Shown piece after piece: positions 12,898-40,664 of a DNA stretch of 43,666 nucleotides. Origin of the DNA: a virus (lineage: Duplodnaviria; Heunggongvirae; Uroviricota; Caudoviricetes); IMG/VR virus record IMGVR_UViG_3300045988_028451, positions 1-43,666 of that record. The stretch is one strand, 5' to 3'. A program made the translations under genes and the position numbers. Position 1 is the first letter of the stretch. The number at the start of each line of letters is the position of its first letter. The notes beneath the pieces are model-generated. The model had not been told where the DNA came from and did not search any database. It worked only from the letters and a program-made list of their open reading frames with translations.

Positions 12898-12929
12898 TTG
12901 CGCACCCCAACATAATAGGATACTATTCA
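12898..12929 (+). promoter_or_regulatory. sigma70-like promoter (TTGCGC-N17-TACTAT) with embedded palindromic operator AATAGGATACTATT
   Basis: -35 at 12898-12903, -10 at 12921-12926, GGAG RBS and ATG at 12968 downstream; same element recurs six more times. Confidence 0.5.
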
Positions 12930-12967
12930 CTTACACCAACAATGTTAACTCAAACAGGAGCTACACC

Positions 12968-13159
12968 ATGACAGGTATTACTATGTTCTTCTTAATCATT
13001 ATCGTTTTAGTTTATTTTATCCCGTTTTTAGTGGCCCATATGCGGGGTCATAAAGCGAAATTAGCGATATTCATGGCCAATCTGTTTCTTGGCTGGGTTC
13101 TGCTGCCGTGGGTATTTATTTTAATCTGGGCTTGCAACTCGAATGTCAAAGAGAAGTGA
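12968..13159 (+). CDS. superinfection immunity-like small membrane protein
   Basis: 63 aa, two hydrophobic helices and FLGW...WxxxLIWA pattern resembling the Imm_superinfect family. Confidence 0.55.
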   Translation: MTGITMFFLIIIVLVYFIPFLVAHMRGHKAKLAIFMANLFLGWVLLPWVFILIWACNSNVKEK

Positions 13160-13198
13160 GCTAGTATAGGACAAATCCTAAACACGAGGAAGTAAAGC

Positions 13199-14329
13199 AT
13201 GGCCCAGATTAAAATAACCGACGAACAGTTACAGGAAGAATTGAACGCCGGAACAAAGATTATCGACATATCCCGTAAATACGGAATCTCAGACCGCGTT
13301 ATCCGTATCCGTAAAGCGAAGCTGGCTAAGAAAGGTGTAGGCCACGGTCGCGACGTTAGTCACCTTGTGCCTGACGGCTACAAGATTAAAGGTACGTCGT
13401 CTCTGGTGGACGAGTTCGGCAACACTAAACTGCAATGGGTTAAGACCGACACTGACGCAGAACGTCAGGTCGAGTTAATGAAGGCCGTAATCGAAGGCAT
13501 GAAGTCGGAGATTACCCCCGTTGCTCCTGTTAAAGCCGTTCGCGCCAAACGCGACGATAAACTACTCAATCTTTACACTGTGTCTGATTTCCATCTCGGC
13601 ATGCTGGCCTGGGCCGACGAGAGCGGCGACGACTGGGATATGAAGATTGCTGAAGACCTGTTTTCTCGCTGGTTCGATGCGGCATTCCAGAAAGCGCCGG
13701 ATGCAGGAACTGGAGTTATTAACCTGCTGGGCGACTTCGCGCACTTCGACAGTCTGGATGCGGTTACCCCCGCAAGTGGTCACGTTCTTGATGCGGACAC
13801 TCGCTATCAGAAACTTGTCCGCTACATGATTCGTATGGTCCGCCGTGTTGTCGGTATGGCGCTGGTTAAGCATAAAAATGTTCGCTTGCTTATCGTGCAA
13901 GGAAACCACGACGAAAGCGGAATGATTTGGTTAGCTGAGATGTTTAGTACGCTGTACGACAATGAGCCTCGTGTGTTCGTCGATACGTCGCCAGATGTTT
14001 ACAAGATGGTGCAACACGGCAAAACGACGCTGTTCTTTCACCACGGGCATAAGGCACGATTCGACGCTATCGAACCGGTTATGATTGCCAAGTTCCGCAA
14101 AGCATTTGGCGAAAGCGTTTACAGCTACGCCCACATAGGCCACCTCCACCATCAGAAGATTGTGGAAAGCCGTAACATGATTGTTGAGCAACACCGCACC
14201 CTGGCGGCTAAAGACGCCTACGCCTCGCGCGGTGGATGGATGTCAGGCCGTAGTGCAAATGTAATTACCTATAGTGCCGAATATGGCGAGGTCGCACGTT
14301 TAACTATTTCACCGGAGATGCTGGGATGA
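13199..14329 (+). CDS. HTH domain + calcineurin-like metallophosphoesterase
   Basis: Metallophosphoesterase motifs DxH (SDFHLG), GDxxxxD (GDFAHFD), GNHDE, HHGH, GHLHH; N-terminal HTH-like IIDISRKYGISDRVI. Confidence 0.7.
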   Translation: MAQIKITDEQLQEELNAGTKIIDISRKYGISDRVIRIRKAKLAKKGVGHGRDVSHLVPDGYKIKGTSSLVDEFGNTKLQWVKTDTDAERQVELMKAVIEGMKSEITPVAPVKAVRAKRDDKLLNLYTVSDFHLGMLAWADESGDDWDMKIAEDLFSRWFDAAFQKAPDAGTGVINLLGDFAHFDSLDAVTPASGHVLDADTRYQKLVRYMIRMVRRVVGMALVKHKNVRLLIVQGNHDESGMIWLAEMFSTLYDNEPRVFVDTSPDVYKMVQHGKTTLFFHHGHKARFDAIEPVMIAKFRKAFGESVYSYAHIGHLHHQKIVESRNMIVEQHRTLAAKDAYASRGGWMSGRSANVITYSAEYGEVARLTISPEMLG

Positions 14330-14526
14330 AAGATATGTATGAATGCACCGATGTGAGTCCGTACGCGGAGAAAAATGGATTCGAAGTAGGCGCTGTATAT
14401 GAAGGGGTAACCCTAGAGAACGGCGACGTAAGAATGTATTCGCCTAAATATCGCAGCTTCTTTGAAATAGGCAGCATTAACGAGTCAGGCATAGCCCGAT
14501 TTAAGAGAGTTAACCGTGACAAATAA
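14326..14526 (+). CDS. hypothetical protein
   Basis: ATGA overlap with upstream stop. Confidence 0.45.
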   Translation: MKDMYECTDVSPYAEKNGFEVGAVYEGVTLENGDVRMYSPKYRSFFEIGSINESGIARFKRVNRDK

Positions 14527-14746
14527 GTACAACCGCACAATGACAAACACCCACGGCAGCACCATGACTGTAGACGTTTATGATGTGCTCCGCGCCTTCG
14601 ATATCCGGGACCCGGCACTACAGCACGCATTAAAGAAACTTTTGTGTATGGGCTTGCGCGGGCACAAAGACACCGGAACAGACTTGGCAGAAGCAATTGA
14701 AAGCCTGGAGAAGTTACGGGAGTACAGGGATAATATTGATGAGTAA
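14516..14746 (+). CDS. hypothetical protein
   Basis: ORF with AAGAGAG RBS before GTG; followed by terminator. Confidence 0.45.
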   Translation: MTNKYNRTMTNTHGSTMTVDVYDVLRAFDIRDPALQHALKKLLCMGLRGHKDTGTDLAEAIESLEKLREYRDNIDE

Positions 14747-21173: not shown

Positions 21174-21437
21174 CTATTCCAGAATATTCCTCACGTAATC
21201 CTGCAACATGAACACTTTCAGTCTCAGTTGCCGTACACATTCGGCGTTCTGAACGTCGATAGCTAAATCCTCGTCAGCGTCGCTACTTGGCGGTGCCAGT
21301 TTGCACGGCGGCTGCATCATCGTCGTATCCGGGGATGGAATTGGCGTTGGCAACGGCGTGGGACTTGAGCAGGACGCGAGCATCGTCGAAAGTGCACACG
21401 CTGCGGCCAGGCGTTTTAATGTACTTAACGACTTCAC
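21174..21437 (-). CDS. Rz1-like outer-membrane lipoprotein (o-spanin, putative), overlapping the Rz-like gene in another frame
   Basis: Signal peptide with lipobox LASC followed by Pro-rich SSPTPLPTPIPSP; starts inside and extends past the Rz-like ORF. Confidence 0.5.
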   Translation of the reverse strand: MKSLSTLKRLAAACALSTMLASCSSPTPLPTPIPSPDTTMMQPPCKLAPPSSDADEDLAIDVQNAECVRQLRLKVFMLQDYVRNILE

Positions 21438-21669
21438 GGGTAATCACCTCTGATTTCGTCTTGCCTTCGTTGTCAGCGGCGGCGGCCTTTGATTCATCCT
21501 GCTGCTGCCGTTGTGTTTTCTTCGTCAGCTCAGCCTGTGCTTTCTGCTGTTGCTGCGAAACGAGATTAGCACGGCCTTCACCCCAGCCGCTGCGGTATTG
21601 ATAGATGCCGTGTGCGTAGGCTAGGACGACGAAACATGCTCCGGCTACGACAGTTGCTTTAAGATTCAT
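21283..21669 (-). CDS. Rz-like inner-membrane spanin (i-spanin, putative)
   Basis: N-terminal TM helix (ATVVAGACFVVLAYAHGIY) followed by Gln/Ala/Lys/Glu-rich coiled-coil-like region. Confidence 0.5.
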   Translation of the reverse strand: MNLKATVVAGACFVVLAYAHGIYQYRSGWGEGRANLVSQQQQKAQAELTKKTQRQQQDESKAAAADNEGKTKSEVITREVVKYIKTPGRSVCTFDDARVLLKSHAVANANSIPGYDDDAAAVQTGTAK

Positions 21670-21987
21670 GTTTCCCCTTTCTCGATAAGTAAAGCCCCGC
21701 CTTAAAGCGGGGCGCTAGTCCTTATCATTTAAACATAGAAACGGCGTAATCTCAGTAAACCAGTTACTTTTTACACAAGCAATAGAGTATGGCCCTTCCG
21801 AACGCGTCAGCGTAACTACACTCAGGACTTACGTCCAGCTCCGTTACCTGCCGCGCCGCGGTCGCTTGCTCATACTTCACAAGCTCAGGTGGAGCTTATC
21901 ATATTTTTAGTGAAAAGTCAAATATTCGAATAGTTTATTCCAACATTTACAATTGAGTGGAATAACTGGAATACGTAAATAAATAGT

Positions 21988-22019
21988 TTGCGTGCACCAA
22001 CATAATAGGGTACTATTCA
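21988..22019 (+). promoter_or_regulatory. sigma70-like promoter (TTGCGT-N17-TACTAT) with embedded operator AATAGGGTACTATT
   Basis: -35 at 21988-21993, -10 at 22011-22016; GGAG RBS and ATG at 22044 downstream. Confidence 0.5.
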
Positions 22020-22043
22020 GTTAACTTAAACAGGAGATGAGAA

Positions 22044-22565
22044 ATGGTTACTACAGTAATTACTTTCCCTGCGTATGTAGGGGCGAAAATATGCAGGGCT
22101 AAAAATGATGTTCGCTACTATTTGAACGCTTTTTACATAGACCCTGAAGGATTGATAGTGTCTACGGACGGTCATAGATTGTTCTGCGACAATGTGAAGA
22201 CCAACGTTGAGAAAGGGACTCTCATAGACATCAAAGGGAGAGAGCCTTCTAAATTTAACTACGCGGAGGTAAACCACGACAACGGCAGTGTATCTTTCTA
22301 TGACGATAATCGTGCGCTTATATGTACACTTCCGGTAGATGTTGTAGAAGGAAACTTTCCTGACTGGAGACGCGTGGCGCACATCACACCGGGTGTTGTC
22401 GACAGTATAGGGTTCACCCTGCGTTATTTGGCAGACGCGTACAAGATTTCTAAGGCATACAAAAATGAAATTGCTCGTTTTGATTTCCAGGACCAAACCA
22501 GAGGATGCAAAATACAATTTTCAAACACGGCCTTTATGGTGTTAATGCCTGCGCGATTTAAATAA
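22044..22565 (+). CDS. truncated beta sliding clamp (DnaN-like) protein
   Basis: 173 aa with DVRYYLN, TDGHRL, GNFPDWRRV and C-terminal VLMPARF, which I recall as matching conserved beta-clamp segments (DVRYYLNG, ATDGHRLA, GRFPDYRRV, VVMPMRL); own promoter and terminator; opposite strand to neighbours; AT-rich by eye. Confidence 0.6.
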   Translation: MVTTVITFPAYVGAKICRAKNDVRYYLNAFYIDPEGLIVSTDGHRLFCDNVKTNVEKGTLIDIKGREPSKFNYAEVNHDNGSVSFYDDNRALICTLPVDVVEGNFPDWRRVAHITPGVVDSIGFTLRYLADAYKISKAYKNEIARFDFQDQTRGCKIQFSNTAFMVLMPARFK

Positions 22566-22569
22566 AACT

Positions 22570-22593
22570 AAGGCCCCATTATGGGGCCTTTTA
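22570..22593. terminator. bidirectional rho-independent terminator
   Basis: GGCCCC-ATTAT-GGGGCC hairpin followed by TTTTAT; between convergent genes. Confidence 0.7.
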
Positions 22594-23052
22594 TCATCCT
22601 GGTTTAGAGACCTTCGCCGCTTTGCTTACGGCCTCCGCACCATCGGCATCAGTAACTTTAACGAAGTATTCACCAGCCGCATTAACAGTCAGAGACAGAG
22701 CCTCTTCCGGGACGTTCACCACTTCCTTCCCGTCTTTGTACCAGGTCAGTACATACGGCGCTTTACCCGCCTTAACTTCGACAGTGATGGTGGCGCTACC
22801 GTCGACCAGCTCGGTGTCTTTCGGTTGCACAGAGAAATACACATCGCCAGCATCTGCCAGATACGGAATCTCATAAAGCATACCTGCCGCTGGAAGTGCA
22901 ATACCGGTTTTATCTGCAAACGGCATATCATCTACCGGCGTACCCAGTACACTTTCGTCCTCAATAAATACCACGTTCTCACCAGAGCCAAACACGCGGG
23001 CGTACTGGACTACGCGTCGCGACGGTACATCAGTTACTTTGAAAAAGCCCAT
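22594..23052 (-). CDS. Ig-like domain-containing protein (possible head decoration)
   Basis: C-terminal YVLTWYKDGKEV ... GEYFVKVTDADG resembles an Ig-like domain. Confidence 0.5.
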   Translation of the reverse strand: MGFFKVTDVPSRRVVQYARVFGSGENVVFIEDESVLGTPVDDMPFADKTGIALPAAGMLYEIPYLADAGDVYFSVQPKDTELVDGSATITVEVKAGKAPYVLTWYKDGKEVVNVPEEALSLTVNAAGEYFVKVTDADGAEAVSKAAKVSKPG

Positions 23053-23055
23053 AAA

Positions 23056-23679
23056 CTAAACCTCTTTCATTGAGTTAATCTTACGTAAGACGCCTTCGAA
23101 AAGGCGTGGGTCTATGCTATCGCAAAGACCTTTGTATTCATATGCTAATTCAATTTTTCTATGAAACCATGCTACGTGTGCCTCTTGAGCGGTTTCGTAA
23201 GCGCCTATTTGTTCAGATACGCCATCCACGGATACTTGAGCGATGAATCTTTTCTTTTGTTTATGGAAATGTACGCCGAGTGGGTGTTCGCCTCGAAGAG
23301 CGTCGTGGGCTGTTAGGAAAGTATTGAGGGATTTAGGGATGAAAACACAGTTAGAAGCATCGTAAACCTTATTTCCCGGGTTAAGTAAATCCTTATCTAT
23401 CTGCCACCCAGGTACATAAAAATCATCAAACCAGACCTTGAAATTACTGAACACCAACCAATCGTCCGACACGCGGCAACCTATATAAGTTCTGTTTCTT
23501 TGCTGCCATTTCTTGTCGTAGCACCTCTTTAACATGTTCTTCCATACGGCGTAGGACGCTATATGCACCCCTCCGCAACTTATTGGTGAAACATCGTTAA
23601 TACCCACACCAAAAACAATTCCCATATTAAACCCTATAAGAAAACCCCATGAAGATTGGTCGATGCCAGAGATAGGCAT
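23056..23679 (-). CDS. AP2-domain homing-endonuclease-like protein
   Basis: N-terminal SYAVWKNMLKRC motif shared with phage HNH-type endonucleases plus AP2-like GVHFHKQKKRFIAQVSVDG...AYETAQEAHVAW; gene is visibly more AT-rich than flanking genes. Confidence 0.55.
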   Translation of the reverse strand: MPISGIDQSSWGFLIGFNMGIVFGVGINDVSPISCGGVHIASYAVWKNMLKRCYDKKWQQRNRTYIGCRVSDDWLVFSNFKVWFDDFYVPGWQIDKDLLNPGNKVYDASNCVFIPKSLNTFLTAHDALRGEHPLGVHFHKQKKRFIAQVSVDGVSEQIGAYETAQEAHVAWFHRKIELAYEYKGLCDSIDPRLFEGVLRKINSMKEV

Positions 23680-34755: not shown

Positions 34756-34788
34756 GTGAATAGTATCCTATTATATTGGGGTGTGCAA
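34756..34788 (-). promoter_or_regulatory. sigma70-like promoter (TTGCAC-N17-TACTAT) with embedded operator AATAGTATCCTATT
   Basis: Minus-strand -35 at 34788 to 34783, -10 at 34765 to 34760; block near-identical to the 12898-12929 element in opposite orientation. Confidence 0.5.
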
Positions 34789-35678: not shown

Positions 35679-37919
35679 ATGTCCGATGTAATTTTATCCT
35701 ACTCGTGGTCCCGTCGCAACGCGCGGGCGGAGAAAAAGGATATAAACGTCAGAACCACACATACGGCAACACTGGACGACCTGAAAGAGTTAATCCAGCC
35801 GCTTGATGTCGTTCGCGATGGGATTAACCCTAAGACCGCGCCCGGGTATATCACCGCTGCGTGCGACTCTACACACAGCACCGTAAAAGACCCGGAAACC
35901 GGTGACTTTAAGCAAGCGCGTAAAGGCTTCTTCTATCGCTGTGACGCGTCTGTAAGCAAATCGTCGCTGGCGTACCTGGACTTCGACAGCGCAACACCGG
36001 AAGAGTATCAGGAAGCTGTGCGCCTGGTTAAGCGCAGCCGCCTGGCTATGTGCCTCTACACCACGGCATCCCATACCGATGAGTCACCACGCTTTCGCGT
36101 CGTCATGCCGCTGGGCCGCCCGGTTGAAGGTGGAGACATCATCCGTGTTCGCCATGGATTGCTGGAACACTTCTTCAAAGGCATGGGCGCGGACCGCAGC
36201 GGTTTCACTCTGTCGCAGCCTATGTACCTGCCGCCGGTTGGCTCTACCGTTATCTGGTCGCGCCGAAACGACCTGATTGACCCGGAAGAGTTACTGGAAG
36301 GCATCCCGGATTACGAGGTGAGCAGCGCATCTGACTACCAGATACCAGAAGAACTGCGTACCGCGTTTACTGATGCGTTTGAGGCGCTGGCGTTTGAGTA
36401 CGGCGGTGTTATGACGCCCCGCGGCCTTAAGATGCCAGCTACGCCGGAACATGCAGAAAATTACAGCGACCCTACGCCGCGCCCGGACGACTTCCTGCTG
36501 TGCTTCCCGCGCGAGGGCTACGAAGCGCCGAACGTAACCATGATCCACGACACTGACATTACGGCAACCGAAGGCATGTCGCCGAAAGAGGTGTGGAAAT
36601 ATGCGTGTGATGCGACTGGTCTCCCGTTCAGTGAAGTCGCTGAGGCTATCGGCTGGGGCGCACGTGAATCTGTTTCATGCAGCCTCGACGACCTGGAAGA
36701 CGACGAGGACCCCGAGGAGGACGAGCTACCGGAACCGGTAAAGGCTGATTTCGTCGTAGAAGGGTATATGCCGTCAGATTGCATCTGGGATATTGTCGGG
36801 GAATCCGGCACGTACAAATCATTCTATACGCTGGGGATGATGTACCTGAGCGCCGCCGGATACCGGTTCGCCGGGGCGGACACCCAGCGTTGCCATCACT
36901 TCTATATCGACGGTGAGGGTGGCGCGGCTACACGCACACGTATTGACGCACTAGCGGCTAAATATGGTGAGGAAGGTAAAGATTATGTACATGTCATCGA
37001 CATGGGTGAAGTCGGAAAACTTAAAAACCTGATTAAGTTGATGCGTGAAACTGCGGGTGACGAACCCATCGGCATGGTTGCCTTCGACACCCTAAACCAG
37101 ACCCTGGCTTTGACGATTGATAAGTTCGACGAGAACAGTTCATCGACGGCAATCGGCATGGGTAAAGTCATTGCCATCCTGAAAGAAGTACGTGACGTGA
37201 CTAAAGCCGCAGTAGGCGTTGTCCATCATACGCCGAAGGGTGGGAAGAAAGCCCGCGGCAGTGGTGCGCTGTATGCTGGCGTCGACGTGGAACTGACAAT
37301 TGAACGCGCGACCGACCGTCAGATAAACGTATACCACTCTAAATTTAAGCACGGGCCCCAACAGAAAACGGTTGGCATGGTGCTGGAGTCGGTACAGTTC
37401 CGCGAAGCGCCACCGCCGAAAGAGTACCGTGCTGTTGAGTTCCTGGGTAGCACAGAGGAATACGGCACAATCGTAAACCTCGACCTGCCAGAACCACATA
37501 AGGCACTTGTGCTGATGCCGTGGGGCTTCGAGCCGTTCAAAACTGACGAGGAGAAAGAGCGGGAAGAAGGGCTGACGAAAGAAGGTAAAGAAAACGTAAA
37601 GAATGCTGTAAAACGCGGGAAGGATGAAGGGCGTAAGGAATCAATACTCGCCGCGCTGGAAGACCTGCAGCAGGCCGACGACACCGGACGCGGTTTTACC
37701 CAACGGCAGATAGTGGCGAACTCTGGCGACCACGCTATCACCAACCACCATCTCGAGAAGATGCTGAAAGACGGTGAGTTGATGCTTGGATGTGATGTTA
37801 ACGGTGAAGTTATACCGGGCACATACAGGATACCGGAAAAGATGGGCGACAGATTAAGACCGAAGACAATATACGAACCGAATGAAATGCTGGTGGTGAC
37901 AGAGGAGGATTTGGAGTAG
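35679..37919 (+). CDS. DNA primase/helicase (N-terminal primase-like domain, C-terminal RecA-like NTPase)
   Basis: 746 aa; Walker A GESGTYKS and RecA/DnaB-like NTPase core in the C-terminal half; acidic linker. Confidence 0.65.
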   Translation: MSDVILSYSWSRRNARAEKKDINVRTTHTATLDDLKELIQPLDVVRDGINPKTAPGYITAACDSTHSTVKDPETGDFKQARKGFFYRCDASVSKSSLAYLDFDSATPEEYQEAVRLVKRSRLAMCLYTTASHTDESPRFRVVMPLGRPVEGGDIIRVRHGLLEHFFKGMGADRSGFTLSQPMYLPPVGSTVIWSRRNDLIDPEELLEGIPDYEVSSASDYQIPEELRTAFTDAFEALAFEYGGVMTPRGLKMPATPEHAENYSDPTPRPDDFLLCFPREGYEAPNVTMIHDTDITATEGMSPKEVWKYACDATGLPFSEVAEAIGWGARESVSCSLDDLEDDEDPEEDELPEPVKADFVVEGYMPSDCIWDIVGESGTYKSFYTLGMMYLSAAGYRFAGADTQRCHHFYIDGEGGAATRTRIDALAAKYGEEGKDYVHVIDMGEVGKLKNLIKLMRETAGDEPIGMVAFDTLNQTLALTIDKFDENSSSTAIGMGKVIAILKEVRDVTKAAVGVVHHTPKGGKKARGSGALYAGVDVELTIERATDRQINVYHSKFKHGPQQKTVGMVLESVQFREAPPPKEYRAVEFLGSTEEYGTIVNLDLPEPHKALVLMPWGFEPFKTDEEKEREEGLTKEGKENVKNAVKRGKDEGRKESILAALEDLQQADDTGRGFTQRQIVANSGDHAITNHHLEKMLKDGELMLGCDVNGEVIPGTYRIPEKMGDRLRPKTIYEPNEMLVVTEEDLE

Positions 37920-37928
37920 GTAAAAAGA

Positions 37929-37947
37929 AAGGGGCATTAAGCCCCTT
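37929..37947. terminator. bidirectional terminator hairpin between convergent primase and HTH genes
   Basis: GGGGC-ATTAA-GCCCC; T-rich tract (TTTCTTTTTT) on minus strand. Confidence 0.5.
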
Positions 37948-38152
37948 CACCTAGCGCCAGCCACTTGGCGTCTACCTCCAGCACTTCCGCCAGTTTAAAC
38001 AGCGTTGCCGGGCGGACGTCCTGGGTTACCCCAAGTGCCAGCTGGTTAATTGCGCCCTGGGAAACCCCGGTCAGCACCGCCAGACGGCGCTGGGAGATGC
38101 CGAGTTCTTTACGGCGTTTTTCTACACGGATGCCTAGTTCAGATGGTTGCAT
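37937..38152 (-). CDS. XRE-family HTH regulator (Cro/CI-like)
   Basis: 71 aa with LGISQRRLAVLTGVSQGAINQLALG helix-turn-helix; divergent from operator-containing early promoters. Confidence 0.7.
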   Translation of the reverse strand: MQPSELGIRVEKRRKELGISQRRLAVLTGVSQGAINQLALGVTQDVRPATLFKLAEVLEVDAKWLALGEGA

Positions 38153-38172: not shown

Positions 38173-38245
38173 TTGATATGTGAATAGTATCATATTAATT
38201 ATTTTAGAAAAGCCCATTGACATGTGAATAGTTCACTATTATAGT
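38173..38245 (+). promoter_or_regulatory. early promoter region with two operator copies (TTGATA... AATAGTATCATATT; TTGACA-N17-TATAGT with AATAGTTCACTATT)
   Basis: -35 TTGACA 38217-38222, -10 TATAGT 38240-38245, operator in spacer; second operator-like copy at 38183-38196; GAGAGGAGAG RBS and ATG at 38277. Confidence 0.5.
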
Positions 38246-39222: not shown

Positions 39223-39426
39223 GTGAATAAATCTTCTGGTAGGCTTGAGGATTACCCGAAAACATTAATATACAAAAGTGAAAAGCATCACATGGCCGCT
39301 GTTGACGCAAGACGTCAGTTCGCAGGAATGTTGCAACAGTTAAGCGACTTACATCGCGATGATTCTTTCACCCCCTCAGAAGAACAGCTACAGGCATTAA
39401 ACTTGTATTTGGAGAGTTTACGATGA
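39223..39426 (+). CDS. hypothetical protein
   Basis: ORF; ATGA overlap with the following nuclease gene. Confidence 0.4.
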   Translation: MNKSSGRLEDYPKTLIYKSEKHHMAAVDARRQFAGMLQQLSDLHRDDSFTPSEEQLQALNLYLESLR

Positions 39427-40664
39427 TTCTAAAAGAACGCGGCGGCAATAACGATGTTCACGCCTTACTTTCGCCGTCAGGTGCTAAAAAATGGCTGTCA
39501 TGCGCTGCATCACTGGCCTGTGAAAAAGATATTCCTAACACGTCGGGTAAATCCGCCGTTACGGGGACAGCGTGCCACACCATAGCTGAAGTCCATCTCA
39601 ACGCCTATATCCGCGGCACTGCGTTGCCGTTAGAGCGTGAAGTTGGCGCTTACGTGCTGGATGAGGGTAAAGGCCAGATTAAGGCGCTAATCAGCCCGAT
39701 GAAAGGCGCGGTACTGATTACGGCGGACATGATTGAGCAGGTGCGAAAGTACACCGACTACTGCAAAGCGATTATAGACGTAGCGACTTATGCCAAGCTC
39801 GAGATGCGGGTAAATCTTACTGAGGTGTTGCATCCTGGTTACGAAGGCGTTGAGACGTTCGGAACCGCTGACCTTGTTGCCGTTCAGGAACTGGCTAACA
39901 CCGACGAGCACATGCTGATTATTGGCGACCTGAAAACCGGGCGGCATCGTGTAGAAGCGAAAGAAAACAAGCAGCTTATGCTCTACGCTCTAGGTGTTTA
40001 TCGCCGACTCAAGAGACGTTATAACATAACAACCGTTCGTCTGGTCATCTTTCAGCCATACGCTGGCGGCGCGTCGGAGTGGGACATCTCGGTTGAAGGT
40101 CTGGAACTGTTCGCTAAGTTTGCGCAGAAACGGGCGCTGTTAGCTCTTGATGCGTATTTCCGTGGTAAAAAGAACCTGAAAGCGTCGGACTTCAGGCCGT
40201 CTGTCGACGGTTGCCAATGGTGCCGTTTCTCAGAGCAGTGCGCCGCGCGTACAAAAACCGTCAACGCGGTGCTGGCGGAAGAACTGGAGGACGACTTTGC
40301 GCTGGAACTTACGCCGGAGGAACTCGTAGCTGAGTACGAGAAGTTGCCGTTGTTGCGCCAGCACATCGACAAGGTTGAGAAAGCTATGGCTGCCGCGTTG
40401 CATTCCGGTAAGAAAGTTCCTGGGTACAAGCTGGTTGAAGGTAAGATGGGCAATCGTGCGTGGAAAGACGCGGAGAAAGTAACAGAACTCTACGGCGACA
40501 AGCTGACTAAAGAAGTGCTCATGACGCCGACCGAAGCGGTTAAAGTTGTGCCGGAAGAAGAACTGAAAGACTTCATCACACGTAAACCAGGTGCCCCATG
40601 CATCACAACGGCAGACGACAAACGGCCTGAGTGGAATCAGGTTAGTGAAGAAGATTTGGAATAA
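39423..40664 (+). CDS. PD-(D/E)XK nuclease with C-terminal Cys cluster (Cas4/RecB-like exonuclease)
   Basis: GTADLVAV ... IGDLKTG nuclease core and C-terminal CQWCRFSEQC cluster. Confidence 0.7.
   Translation: MILKERGGNNDVHALLSPSGAKKWLSCAASLACEKDIPNTSGKSAVTGTACHTIAEVHLNAYIRGTALPLEREVGAYVLDEGKGQIKALISPMKGAVLITADMIEQVRKYTDYCKAIIDVATYAKLEMRVNLTEVLHPGYEGVETFGTADLVAVQELANTDEHMLIIGDLKTGRHRVEAKENKQLMLYALGVYRRLKRRYNITTVRLVIFQPYAGGASEWDISVEGLELFAKFAQKRALLALDAYFRGKKNLKASDFRPSVDGCQWCRFSEQCAARTKTVNAVLAEELEDDFALELTPEELVAEYEKLPLLRQHIDKVEKAMAAALHSGKKVPGYKLVEGKMGNRAWKDAEKVTELYGDKLTKEVLMTPTEAVKVVPEEELKDFITRKPGAPCITTADDKRPEWNQVSEEDLE

What the first reader, a model, noticed from the sequence alone, without database searches (positions are those of the whole stretch)
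21988..22593. Stand-alone truncated beta sliding clamp (DnaN-like) gene inserted as a moron in the head gene region
The 173-aa product (22044-22565) contains DVRYYLN, STDGHRLF, GNFPDWRRV and a C-terminal VLMPARF. As far as I recall these match conserved segments of bacterial DnaN domains II-III (DVRYYLNG, ATDGHRLA, GRFPDYRRV, VVMPMRL), but it is less than half the length of a full clamp. The gene is on the opposite strand to the surrounding structural genes, has its own operator-bearing promoter and terminator, and is AT-rich by eye. A clamp fragment could poison or hijack the host clamp, or act in superinfection exclusion; that is speculation.
Basis: partly seen in the sequence, partly recalled or inferred. 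Interest (0 to 1): 0.7.

Follow-up and report, generated by a model that had tools for sequence, protein, structure and literature searches.

The report
Phage mini-clamp keeping only the binding pocket
This E. coli phage carries a small, self-contained gene for half of a bacterial DNA sliding clamp: it keeps the pocket where clamp partners dock but has lost the parts that close the ring, so it more likely captures host replication and repair proteins than acts as a clamp.

Summary

Overall identity to E. coli beta is 27%, yet 15 of the 18 residues that line beta's clamp-binding-motif pocket are identical. Twelve of the 22 near-invariant family columns are pocket residues.

The gene sits in a 620-bp AT-rich cassette (21973-22592) with a promoter-like element, RBS and bidirectional terminator-like hairpin. 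It lies antisense inside the head genes of a Kagunavirus. It occurs in about a quarter of E. coli Kagunavirus records and at two alternative sites. dN/dS is 0.15-0.18.

It belongs to a large family of stand-alone phage mini-clamps. GenBank labels them sliding clamp, Pol III beta or, wrongly, RusA-like resolvase. I found no functional study.

Best reading (inferred, not shown): a loader-independent pocket module that captures host clamp-binding proteins. This is a new variant of a known kind, of moderate interest.

The parts
21973..22592 (+). Mobile accessory cassette: promoter-like element, RBS, mini-clamp ORF and terminator-like hairpin
   Evidence: blastn against fBC-Eco01: window 21973-22592 matches the unit between portal and MuF genes at 96.6%. 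The left flank up to 22019 and the right flank from 22552 match the other slot of that phage. GC is 0.423 against 0.508 for the window.
21988..22016 (+). Sigma-70-type promoter-like element: -35 TTGCGT (21988-21993), 17-nt spacer, -10 TACTAT (22011-22016)
   Evidence: Read from the sequence. It lies within a motif conserved at four sites in the window and at both fBC-Eco01 slots. Activity not tested.
21999..22019 (+). Conserved 21-nt phage promoter motif AACATAATAGGGTACTATTCA, containing the inverted repeat AATAG-N4-CTATT (22004-22017); possible operator
   Evidence: 4 matches in the window (12909+, 21999+, 34757-, 38225-) against 0.00 expected in shuffles; alignment A2.
22032..22036 (+). Ribosome-binding site AGGAG, 7 nt upstream of the ATG
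   Evidence: Sequence; annotated as an RBS in phage Snoke.
22044..22565 (+). Mini-clamp CDS, 173 aa, 19.7 kDa, pI 8.3: beta-clamp domain II plus the C-terminal half of domain III
   Evidence: dN/dS is 0.15-0.18 against Snoke and XY2.
22113..22127 (+). R24-Y-Y-L-N28, equivalent to beta R152-N156 (pocket subsite I)
   Evidence: Mapping and family conservation.
22164..22181 (+). T41-D-G-H-R-L46, equivalent to beta T172-L177 (pocket subsite I, with H175 bridging the subsites)
   Evidence: T, D, G and R are invariant and H is in 49 of 50 family members.
22356..22376 (+). F105-P-D-W-R-R-V111, equivalent to beta F241-V247 (P242, R246 and V247 of subsite I; the domain II-III connector)
   Evidence: P, W and R109 are invariant.
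22410..22427 (+). G123-F-T-L-R-Y128, equivalent to beta G318-Y323 (N320 and Y323 of subsite II)
   Evidence: Y128 is in 48 of 50 members; N320 is replaced by T here.
22539..22556 (+). V166-L-M-P-A-R171, equivalent to beta V360-R365 (the C-terminal strand that closes the pocket)
   Evidence: M 46/50, P 48/50, R 48/50.
22570..22590 (.). GC-rich hairpin AAGGCCCCAT-TAT-GGGGCCTT, an intrinsic-terminator-like site readable on both strands. It would end the mini-clamp transcript and the converging Hoc-like/head transcript
   Evidence: Terminator scan; RNA fold -15.9 kcal/mol, z -2.5; annotated as a bidirectional terminator in Snoke and fBC-Eco01.

Best explanation
The cassette encodes a non-ring 'pocket-only' paralogue of the bacterial beta sliding clamp. 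In ring order the protein is three of the six beta-alpha-beta-beta-beta units of a beta protomer: both halves of domain II, plus the half of domain III that abuts domain II. Together with the II-III connector these form the hydrophobic pocket where clamp-binding motifs (QL[SD]LF-type) of host proteins dock.

Domain I and the interface-bearing half of domain III are gone. The protein therefore cannot form the beta2 ring by the canonical interface, which makes the canonical loader-mediated ring loading unlikely, although loading was not tested.

I infer that host RNA polymerase transcribes it early, from a promoter type shared with the phage's early genes. I further infer that it binds clamp-binding motifs of host proteins away from the host clamp. 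Candidate ligands are the delta 'wrench' of the clamp loader, Pol III alpha/epsilon, Hda, Pol II/IV/V, MutS/MutL and ligase. This would divert them from beta2 and depress host replication and repair, while the phage's own replisome continues: a family-A polymerase, a gp4-like primase-helicase and a gp2.5-like SSB, with no annotated clamp or loader.

Shown: homology, fold, architecture, pocket conservation, cassette structure, accessory distribution and purifying selection.
Inferred: early expression, peptide binding, the identity of the ligands and the physiological effect.
For: Architecture.
- Residues 16-116 align to beta 144-252 and residues 117-171 to beta 312-365.
- I272/L273, whose mutation makes beta monomeric (review PMC11139829), lie in the missing segment.

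Pocket.
- 15 of the 18 residues the review lists for subsites I and II are identical to E. coli beta, although overall identity is 40/146.
- Of 22 family columns conserved at 90% or more, 12 are pocket residues and most of the rest adjoin them in sequence (K134 is the exception) (Fisher p 6e-8).
- A pocket held identical to the host's suggests host-type ligands.

No phage partner.
- No canonical clamp-binding motif lies at a terminus or in a replication protein of the window.
- The gene moves alone and stands alone in Dhillonvirus, Cornellvirus and Naesvirus.

Dispensable accessory.
- 23 records against 94 Escherichia/Kagunavirus capsid-gene records, at two alternative sites.
- It is interchangeable with unrelated cargo but under purifying selection, dN/dS 0.15-0.18.

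Independence from Pol III.
- Every phage checked encodes its own family-A polymerase.
- No clamp loader is annotated in the close relative Snoke.

Early or counter-defence neighbourhoods elsewhere.
- ParB-like plus methyltransferase.
- Dam/Dcm methyltransferases.
- DUF932 at the head of a long operon of small ORFs.

Shared promoter. The same motif drives an Imm-type cassette and early-region genes.

Monomer affinity. Delta binds monomeric beta about 50 times more tightly than the dimer.

Lost helix. The channel-lining helix alpha2 of domain II is absent from this short-form clade but present in long-form relatives.
Against: - No binding, expression or phenotype data exist. I found no functional study.
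- Micromolar motif affinities would require high protein levels for a sponge to work.
- The protein is basic (pI 8.3). It keeps conserved lysines on the last helix (K134, K137, K140) and K64, so DNA binding and on-DNA recruitment remain possible.
- The same motifs are the most conserved in beta generally, so part of their retention could be structural.
- The oligomeric state is unknown. The exposed half-domain might pair with another copy.
- The co-occurrence with phage family-A polymerases could equally mean that it serves that polymerase.
Confidence: 0.4

Rival explanations
1. DNA-bound, non-ring docking platform. The mini-clamp binds DNA directly through a basic concave face, like herpesvirus UL42. 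It uses its pocket to recruit proteins to phage DNA. Candidates are host ligase or Pol I for Okazaki maturation on a clamp-less replisome, or the phage polymerase itself.
For: - pI 8.3, with conserved K64, K134, K137 and K140.
- Every checked phage with a mini-clamp has its own family-A polymerase, and no ligase is annotated in the relative Snoke.
- Ligase is listed among beta partners in the review; that Pol I also binds beta is my own recollection.
Against: - The gene is missing from about three quarters of closely related Kagunaviruses that share the same polymerase, so it cannot be a core replisome part.
- No canonical clamp-binding motif is found in phage replication proteins.
- The short-form clade has lost one of the channel-lining helices.
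Confidence: 0.25
2. Alternative ring. Four protomers of three units each rebuild a 12-unit ring. The half-domains pair across a two-fold axis and the domain II edges pair with each other. This would give a true sliding clamp with pockets on both faces, loaded by the host clamp loader.
For: - The geometry is possible in principle, because beta's units are related by in-plane pseudo-two-folds (my own reasoning from the known fold).
- The half-domain would otherwise expose a surface that is normally buried.
- The host beta* fragment (domains II-III) is reported to act as a clamp in another oligomeric form (my own recollection of Skaliter, Paz-Elizur and Livneh 1996, not checked here).
Against: - No conserved columns lie outside the pocket that could mark two new interfaces.
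- Helix alpha2 of domain II is deleted in this clade, so 4 of 12 channel helices would be missing.
- AlphaFold2 models a confident monomer.
Confidence: 0.12
3. Poison subunit. The fragment co-assembles with host beta monomers and blocks ring closure.
For: Phages do target beta, for example Twort Gp168 (PMC8565349, listed).
Against: Both halves of the beta dimer interface are absent: domain I, and the domain III half that carries I272/L273. Conservation is concentrated on the ligand pocket, not on any interface.
Confidence: 0.05
4. The database labels are right: it is either a conventional Pol III beta processivity clamp or a RusA-like Holliday junction resolvase.
For: GenBank product names; the fBC-Eco01 paper describes it as a processivity clamp; the PHROG 3007 label.
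Against: - TIGR00663 scores 20.3 bits against a cut-off of 137.65.
- Only 47% of the length is present, with no domain I and no interface.
- No clamp loader is annotated in the close relative Snoke.
- Pfam RusA does not hit even at E 10.
- Bcep43 carries a separate real Rus gene.
- The fold is that of a beta clamp.
Confidence: 0.02
5. A decaying remnant of a captured dnaN gene, with no function.
For: It is truncated, AT-rich and dispensable.
Against: - dN/dS is 0.15-0.18, and the copy in fBC-Eco01 differs only by synonymous changes.
- 191 cluster representatives score E <= 1e-30; the best 150, all 141-265 aa long, nearly all cover the whole profile.
- The pocket residues are invariant.
- It has an intact promoter-like element, RBS and terminator-like hairpin.
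Confidence: 0.03

Closest known systems
Bacterial beta sliding clamp DnaN (Pfam PF00712/PF02767/PF02768; TIGR00663), e.g. E. coli beta, PDB 1MMI
   Different: No domain I. No first half of domain III, and so no I272/L273 interface. 173 aa against 366 aa. Basic rather than acidic (the acidity of beta is my own recollection). One channel helix is deleted. It cannot form the beta2 ring.
Stand-alone phage mini-clamps (PHROG 3007; Bcep43 gp15 'DNA Pol III b subunit fragment'; Snoke gp006; TheodorHerzl gp07; BFVD models of 163-215 aa)
   Same: The same family: PHROG E 3.6e-36 and TM 0.81-0.87 to BFVD models. It is often a lone antisense gene within the head module.
   Different: The window protein belongs to the minimal short form. 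It lacks helix alpha2 of domain II and lacks the C-terminal P-x-W ... AA tail carried by most long-form members. I found no experimentally characterised member.
E. coli beta* (UV-inducible 26-kDa C-terminal two-thirds of beta; recalled from Skaliter, Paz-Elizur and Livneh 1996, not verified here)
   Same: A naturally produced beta lacking domain I that keeps the pocket.
   Different: beta* keeps the whole of domain III and is host-encoded from an internal start in dnaN. The phage protein also lacks half of domain III.
Herpesvirus non-ring processivity factors UL42 and UL44
   Different: They have two complete domains, are eukaryotic-virus proteins, share no sequence similarity and are essential replisome subunits.
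Phage inhibitors of the host clamp, e.g. Staphylococcus phage Twort Gp168 (PMC8565349)
   Same: They act on the same host hub, the beta-clamp interaction network, during takeover.
   Different: Gp168 is an unrelated small protein that plugs the DNA channel of beta. The mini-clamp would instead compete for beta's ligands.

Membership tests
Beta sliding clamp (DnaN, TIGR00663 equivalog) | Three tandem clamp domains (N-terminal, central, C-terminal), about 366 aa | tested here: not met
   Only beta 144-252 and 312-365 are represented. TIGR00663 scores 20.3 bits against a cut-off of 137.65. Pfam reports only the central domain, at 17.2 bits and below the gathering score of 27.
Beta sliding clamp (DnaN, TIGR00663 equivalog) | Head-to-tail dimer interface (domain I with the domain III helix carrying I272/L273) that closes a ring | tested here: not met
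   Both partner segments are absent from the alignment. The role of I272/L273 is taken from review PMC11139829.
Beta sliding clamp (DnaN, TIGR00663 equivalog) | Clamp fold (beta-alpha-beta-beta-beta units) | tested here: met
Beta sliding clamp (DnaN, TIGR00663 equivalog) | Hydrophobic clamp-binding-motif pocket (subsites I and II) | tested here: met
   15 of 18 listed residues are identical, and 12 of the 22 near-invariant family columns are pocket residues. Ligand binding itself cannot be tested with these tools.
Beta sliding clamp (DnaN, TIGR00663 equivalog) | Loaded on DNA by a clamp loader and confers processivity | not testable with these tools
   No clamp loader gene is annotated in the close relative Snoke. 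A biochemical assay is needed.
Phage stand-alone mini-clamp family (PHROG 3007) | Full-length match to the family profile; length about 170-220 aa; single PF02767-type region | tested here: met
   phrog_3007 E 3.6e-36 over aa 13-172. 72 homologues were found. Nearly all of the best 150 representatives cover the whole profile.
RusA Holliday junction resolvase (the label attached to PHROG 3007) | RusA fold and Pfam PF05866 signature | tested here: not met
   No RusA hit at E <= 10. The fold is that of a beta clamp. Bcep43 has a separate Rus gene.
Moron / accessory cassette | Autonomous promoter and terminator, deviant base composition, presence/absence polymorphism among close relatives | tested here: met
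   Transcription itself was not measured.
Known anti-phage defence or candidate systems (PADLOC) | Match to a PADLOC model | tested here: not met
   0 families at E <= 1.

The most novel reading that the evidence does not exclude
Stand-alone mini-clamps are a widespread and so far unstudied phage strategy. They would be a loader-independent copy of the host clamp's ligand pocket that acts as a sponge for host clamp-binding proteins. The tightest ligand would probably be the delta wrench of the clamp loader, which prefers monomeric beta. This would switch off host replication, repair or clamp-dependent defence without touching the clamp itself. In long-form relatives a C-terminal P-x-W ... AA tail might act as a built-in pseudo-ligand and degron that times this activity.
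Probability: 0.3. Interest if true: 0.75.

Novelty: new variant of a known kind. Interest (0 to 1): 0.55.

Why it matters
The beta clamp is the central hub of bacterial replication and repair, and a drug target through exactly this pocket. A natural, minimised, monomer-sized pocket module would be three things:
- a new type of phage host-takeover or counter-defence protein, acting by ligand capture instead of clamp blockade;
- a ready-made tool for probing or titrating the clamp interactome in vivo;
- a compact scaffold for screening pocket inhibitors.

It would also correct annotation that is spreading through phage genomes ('sliding clamp/processivity factor' and 'RusA-like resolvase'). It gives a clean example of module exchange mediated by shared promoter and terminator sequences within a structural operon.

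Tried and rejected
- Literature. Seven full-text searches found no functional study. They covered Kagunavirus with sliding clamp; truncated clamp or clamp-binding motif in phage; Bcep781/Bcep43; decoy or host takeover; DnaN with anti-phage defence; 'truncated/fragment/DnaN-like' phrases; and polyvalent proteins with DUF932. The only paper that mentions the gene treats it as a normal processivity clamp.
- PADLOC gave no hit.
- Plasmids. The tblastn hit whose context I examined was a full-length (425-aa) plasmid clamp next to dinG, dam and rdgC, and most other full-coverage hits carry the same 'DNA polymerase III subunit beta' label. I therefore dropped the idea of a plasmid leading-region link.
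- Phage-encoded partner. A regex scan of all ORFs for Q-phi-x-[LM]-(x)-[FL] found only internal matches in tail proteins and none in replication proteins. Inspection of protein termini found no such motif either.
- Domain fusions. Ten longer relatives show only PF02767.
- Oligomer test.
I could therefore not map surface hydrophobicity, or find where the tail docks in the long-form model.
- A first residue mapping made with mafft --keeplength was wrong because insertions were dropped. It was redone correctly.
- The antisense 163-aa ORF at 22026-22517 was treated as a shadow ORF of the conserved + strand gene.

Full report
**What is there**

The window is a circularly permuted genome of an Escherichia Kagunavirus (Guernseyvirinae). 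The region around the finding is about 98% identical to phages vB_EcoS_fPoEco01 and fFiEco02. The ORF at 22044-22565 (+) encodes 173 aa and is preceded by AGGAG 7 nt upstream. Everything around it is on the minus strand: spanins, scaffold, major capsid, a Hoc-like decoration protein, an HNH endonuclease, a MuF-like head morphogenesis protein and the portal.

**Is the DnaN similarity real?**

Yes. The evidence is:
- phmmer against PDB sequences finds E. coli beta first, at E 3.7e-5. Residues 16-116 align to beta 144-252 and residues 117-171 to beta 312-365.
- An HMM of 50 family members hits E. coli DnaN at E 1.9e-33.
- AlphaFold2 on that alignment gives pLDDT 95.1 and pTM 0.91.
- Curated full-length models are not met. 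TIGR00663 scores 20.3 bits against a cut-off of 137.65. The Pfam central domain scores 17.2 bits against 27.

**Architecture**

By my reading of the known clamp fold, that half abuts domain II, and with it forms the ligand pocket. Domain I is missing, and so is residues 254-311, which carry I272/L273. Mutation of those residues makes beta monomeric (review PMC11139829). A canonical beta2 ring is therefore excluded.

In addition, helix alpha2 of domain II is replaced by a short loop here (aa 64-72). This helix is one of the channel-lining helices. It is present in a long-form relative, as helix 74-82 of P0044.

**What is conserved**

I used the pocket definition from the review:
- Subsite I: R152, L155, T172, G174, H175, R176, L177, P242, R246, V247, V360, M362.
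- Subsite II: H175, N320, Y323, V344, M362, P363, M364, R365.

Of these 18 residues, 15 are identical in the window protein. The exceptions are N320 to T, M364 to A, and V344, which is not reliably aligned. Overall identity is only 40/146.

Across 50 family members, 22 columns are conserved at 90% or more. Twelve of them are pocket residues. Nine of the other ten lie within the same pocket motifs, next to a pocket residue or one position away (Y153, Y154, N156, D173, D238, G239, D243, Y244W, R245); the tenth is K134, on the last helix (Fisher p 6e-8). Outside these motifs almost nothing is conserved, apart from a few basic positions: K64, K134, K137 and K140. The protein is basic, with pI 8.3.

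**The gene is functional and belongs to a large family**

- dN/dS is 0.15-0.18 against Snoke and XY2. The fBC-Eco01 copy differs only synonymously.
- A profile search of 1.84 billion cluster representatives returns 191 at E <= 1e-30. The best 150 are all 141-265 aa long, and nearly all match end to end.
- BFVD holds many viral models of 163-215 aa at TM 0.8-0.87.
- tblastn finds the protein in 223 phage records from Salmonella, Escherichia, Klebsiella, Proteus, Burkholderia, Vibrio and other phages.
- GenBank names it 'DNA polymerase III sliding clamp/beta subunit', 'beta clamp domain-containing protein', 'DNA Pol III b subunit fragment' (Bcep43 gp15) or 'RusA-like Holliday junction resolvase'.
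- The RusA label comes from PHROG 3007 and is wrong. There is no RusA Pfam hit, the fold is that of a clamp, and Bcep43 has a separate Rus gene.

**The cassette**

blastn against fBC-Eco01 splits the locus cleanly:

| Window segment | Match in fBC-Eco01 |
|---|---|
| 21400-22019 | Left flank and promoter of that phage's spanin/Hoc slot |
| 21973-22592 | 96.6% match to a promoter-clamp-terminator unit between its portal and MuF genes |
| 22552-23052 | Terminator and right flank of the spanin/Hoc slot |

In fBC-Eco01 the spanin/Hoc slot holds the same promoter and terminator around two small membrane or lipoprotein genes. The unit therefore moves as promoter plus ORF plus terminator. The shared 40-47-bp regulatory ends overlap the breakpoints and are a plausible substrate for recombination.

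Distribution:
- The gene is present in 23 records, all E. coli Kagunaviruses, at 89-99% nt identity.
- The capsid gene is found in 369 Guernseyvirinae records, of which 94 are Escherichia or Kagunavirus.
- From record coordinates, at least five records appear to use the portal/MuF site. This is an inference from positions, and I checked it only for fBC-Eco01.

Composition and signals:
- Cassette GC is 0.423 against 0.508 for the window, in the lowest 1.5% of windows.
- The promoter-like element has -35 TTGCGT, a 17-nt spacer and -10 TACTAT. It lies in a 21-nt motif with four copies in the window (0 expected) and carries the inverted repeat AATAG-N4-CTATT.
- The other copies precede three other units. 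One is an antisense cassette in the tail module, with an Imm-type superinfection-immunity gene and a metallophosphoesterase. One is a run of small early-region genes. One is the 71-aa ORF at 37937-38152, probably the counterpart of Snoke's Cro-like regulator by position.
- The hairpin at 22570-22590 is terminator-like on both strands.
- None of these signals was tested functionally.

**Context elsewhere**

| Phage or contig | Position of the mini-clamp gene |
|---|---|
| Cornellvirus, Dhillonvirus (TheodorHerzl), Burkholderia myovirus Bcep43 | Lone antisense gene within the head module |
| Bas79 and Klebsiella phage 6991 | Ends an operon; in Bas79 the operon includes a ParB-like protein and a DNA methyltransferase |
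| Skarpretter | Between Dam and Dcm methyltransferases |
| Two groups of 43-kb metagenomic phages | Follows DUF932 at the head of a long run of small ORFs |
| Another metagenomic contig | Near a family-A polymerase |

Every isolate I checked encodes its own family-A polymerase and helicases. No clamp loader is annotated in the close relative Snoke.

**Mechanism**

The best-supported inference is this. Selection has preserved a host-type clamp-binding-motif pocket on a scaffold that cannot be a ring, and the gene works alone in unrelated phages. I found no canonical motif in the phage's own replication proteins, so host ligands are the most economical partners. A soluble pocket would compete with beta2 for the delta wrench, Pol III alpha/epsilon, Hda, the translesion polymerases, MutS/L and ligase (partner list from the review). 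The review notes that delta binds monomeric beta about 50 times more tightly than the dimer. Since the phage brings its own clamp-independent replisome, depressing host clamp loading or repair would cost it nothing.

I give this ligand-capture model 0.40. The rivals are:
- A DNA-bound, UL42-like docking platform that recruits proteins to phage DNA: 0.25. It is supported by the basic pI, the conserved lysines and the co-occurrence with a family-A polymerase. It is weakened by the accessory distribution.
- A four-protomer ring: 0.12. It is geometrically conceivable, but no conserved interfaces are visible and a channel helix is missing.
- A poison subunit: 0.05. The interfaces are absent.
- The database labels: 0.02.
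- A dead remnant: 0.03.

**Comparison with what is known, and novelty**

The protein is a member of the beta-clamp superfamily by fold and pocket. It fails the defining features of DnaN itself, namely three domains and a ring interface. It is a clear member of the unstudied stand-alone mini-clamp family (PHROG 3007). Within that family it represents a minimal short form, without helix alpha2 and without the C-terminal tail.

The existence of a 'beta fragment' gene in phages is already recorded in GenBank annotation. Four points appear to be new:
- the precise architecture;
- the pocket-only conservation;
- the demonstration that it cannot be the processivity clamp it is annotated as;
- the definition of the mobile cassette.

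I therefore rate it a new variant of a known kind, with interest 0.55. The function remains a hypothesis that simple experiments could settle.

Noticed in passing
Relatives P0040-P0211 (long-form mini-clamps); model m4a641b2c58cf of P0044: 101 of 186 relatives carry a tail of at least 8 aa after the MPxR motif. 69 of these 101 have a Trp within 22 aa, often as [LAI]-P-x-W-[VIL], for example QLPTWAF. 46 of 101 end in -AA (about 3% expected), which resembles the ssrA/ClpX degron end. In the AlphaFold2 model the tail has pLDDT 75-82 with a short helix at the P-x-W, so it probably packs on the body. It might act as a pseudo-ligand of the protein's own pocket. The window protein has no tail.
   Followed up: partly
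window 23056-23679 (-): A 207-aa HNH homing endonuclease (phrog_953, E 3e-79; no Pfam hit). It is AT-rich (GC 0.426) and lies between the Hoc-like gene and the MuF-like head morphogenesis gene. The relative Snoke lacks it but has an intein in the MuF gene, so this head region collects selfish or accessory insertions.
   Followed up: partly
window 12909-14746 (+): A second antisense cassette inside the tail module, driven by the same promoter motif. It holds an Imm_superinfect protein (12968-13159, PF14373, E 9e-14), a 376-aa metallophosphoesterase (13199-14329) and two small ORFs.
   Followed up: partly
window 12909-12929 (+), 21999-22019 (+), 34757-34777 (-), 38225-38245 (-): Four copies of a 21-nt promoter motif (consensus AAYATAATAGGRTACTATTCA, preceded by TTGCRC) that contains the palindrome AATAG-N4-CTATT. 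It is probably a common early promoter and operator. The copy at 38225 is tandem with a second partial copy, upstream of the 71-aa ORF at 37937-38152 (probably the counterpart of Snoke's Cro-like regulator, judged by position).
   Followed up: partly
window 35679-37919 (+) and 39423-40664 (+): The gp4-like primase-helicase and the PD-(D/E)XK exonuclease (phrog_69) both end in ...EEDLE. This shared acidic C-terminal tail recalls the T7 gp4 and gp2.5 tails that dock on the polymerase.
   Followed up: no
GenBank records H8, H9, H31, H39, H41-H48, H62: The wrong product name 'RusA-like Holliday junction resolvase' (from PHROG 3007) is attached to this beta-clamp-fold protein in many phage records in the collection.
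   Followed up: yes
L002 (fBC-Eco01) 1813-2400: In the same slot, behind the same promoter and before a similar terminator, fBC-Eco01 carries a 33-aa membrane peptide and a 114-aa protein with a lipoprotein-like signal (MKYIKLAVAGVVAVCLSGC). This alternative cargo looks like a candidate superinfection-exclusion factor.
   Followed up: no
BFVD hit A0A6J7W9M3_1: A weak structural match (E 1.4e-5, TMq 0.54) of the mini-clamp model to part of a 1394-aa 'large polyvalent protein-associated domain' protein of an uncultured phage. It hints that a clamp-like module may also occur in injected polyvalent proteins.
   Followed up: no
L015 (Klebsiella plasmid p33Kpn22-2) 8482-9759: Large MOBH conjugative plasmids encode their own full-length (425-aa) beta clamp, next to dinG, a Dam methyltransferase and rdgC.
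   Followed up: no
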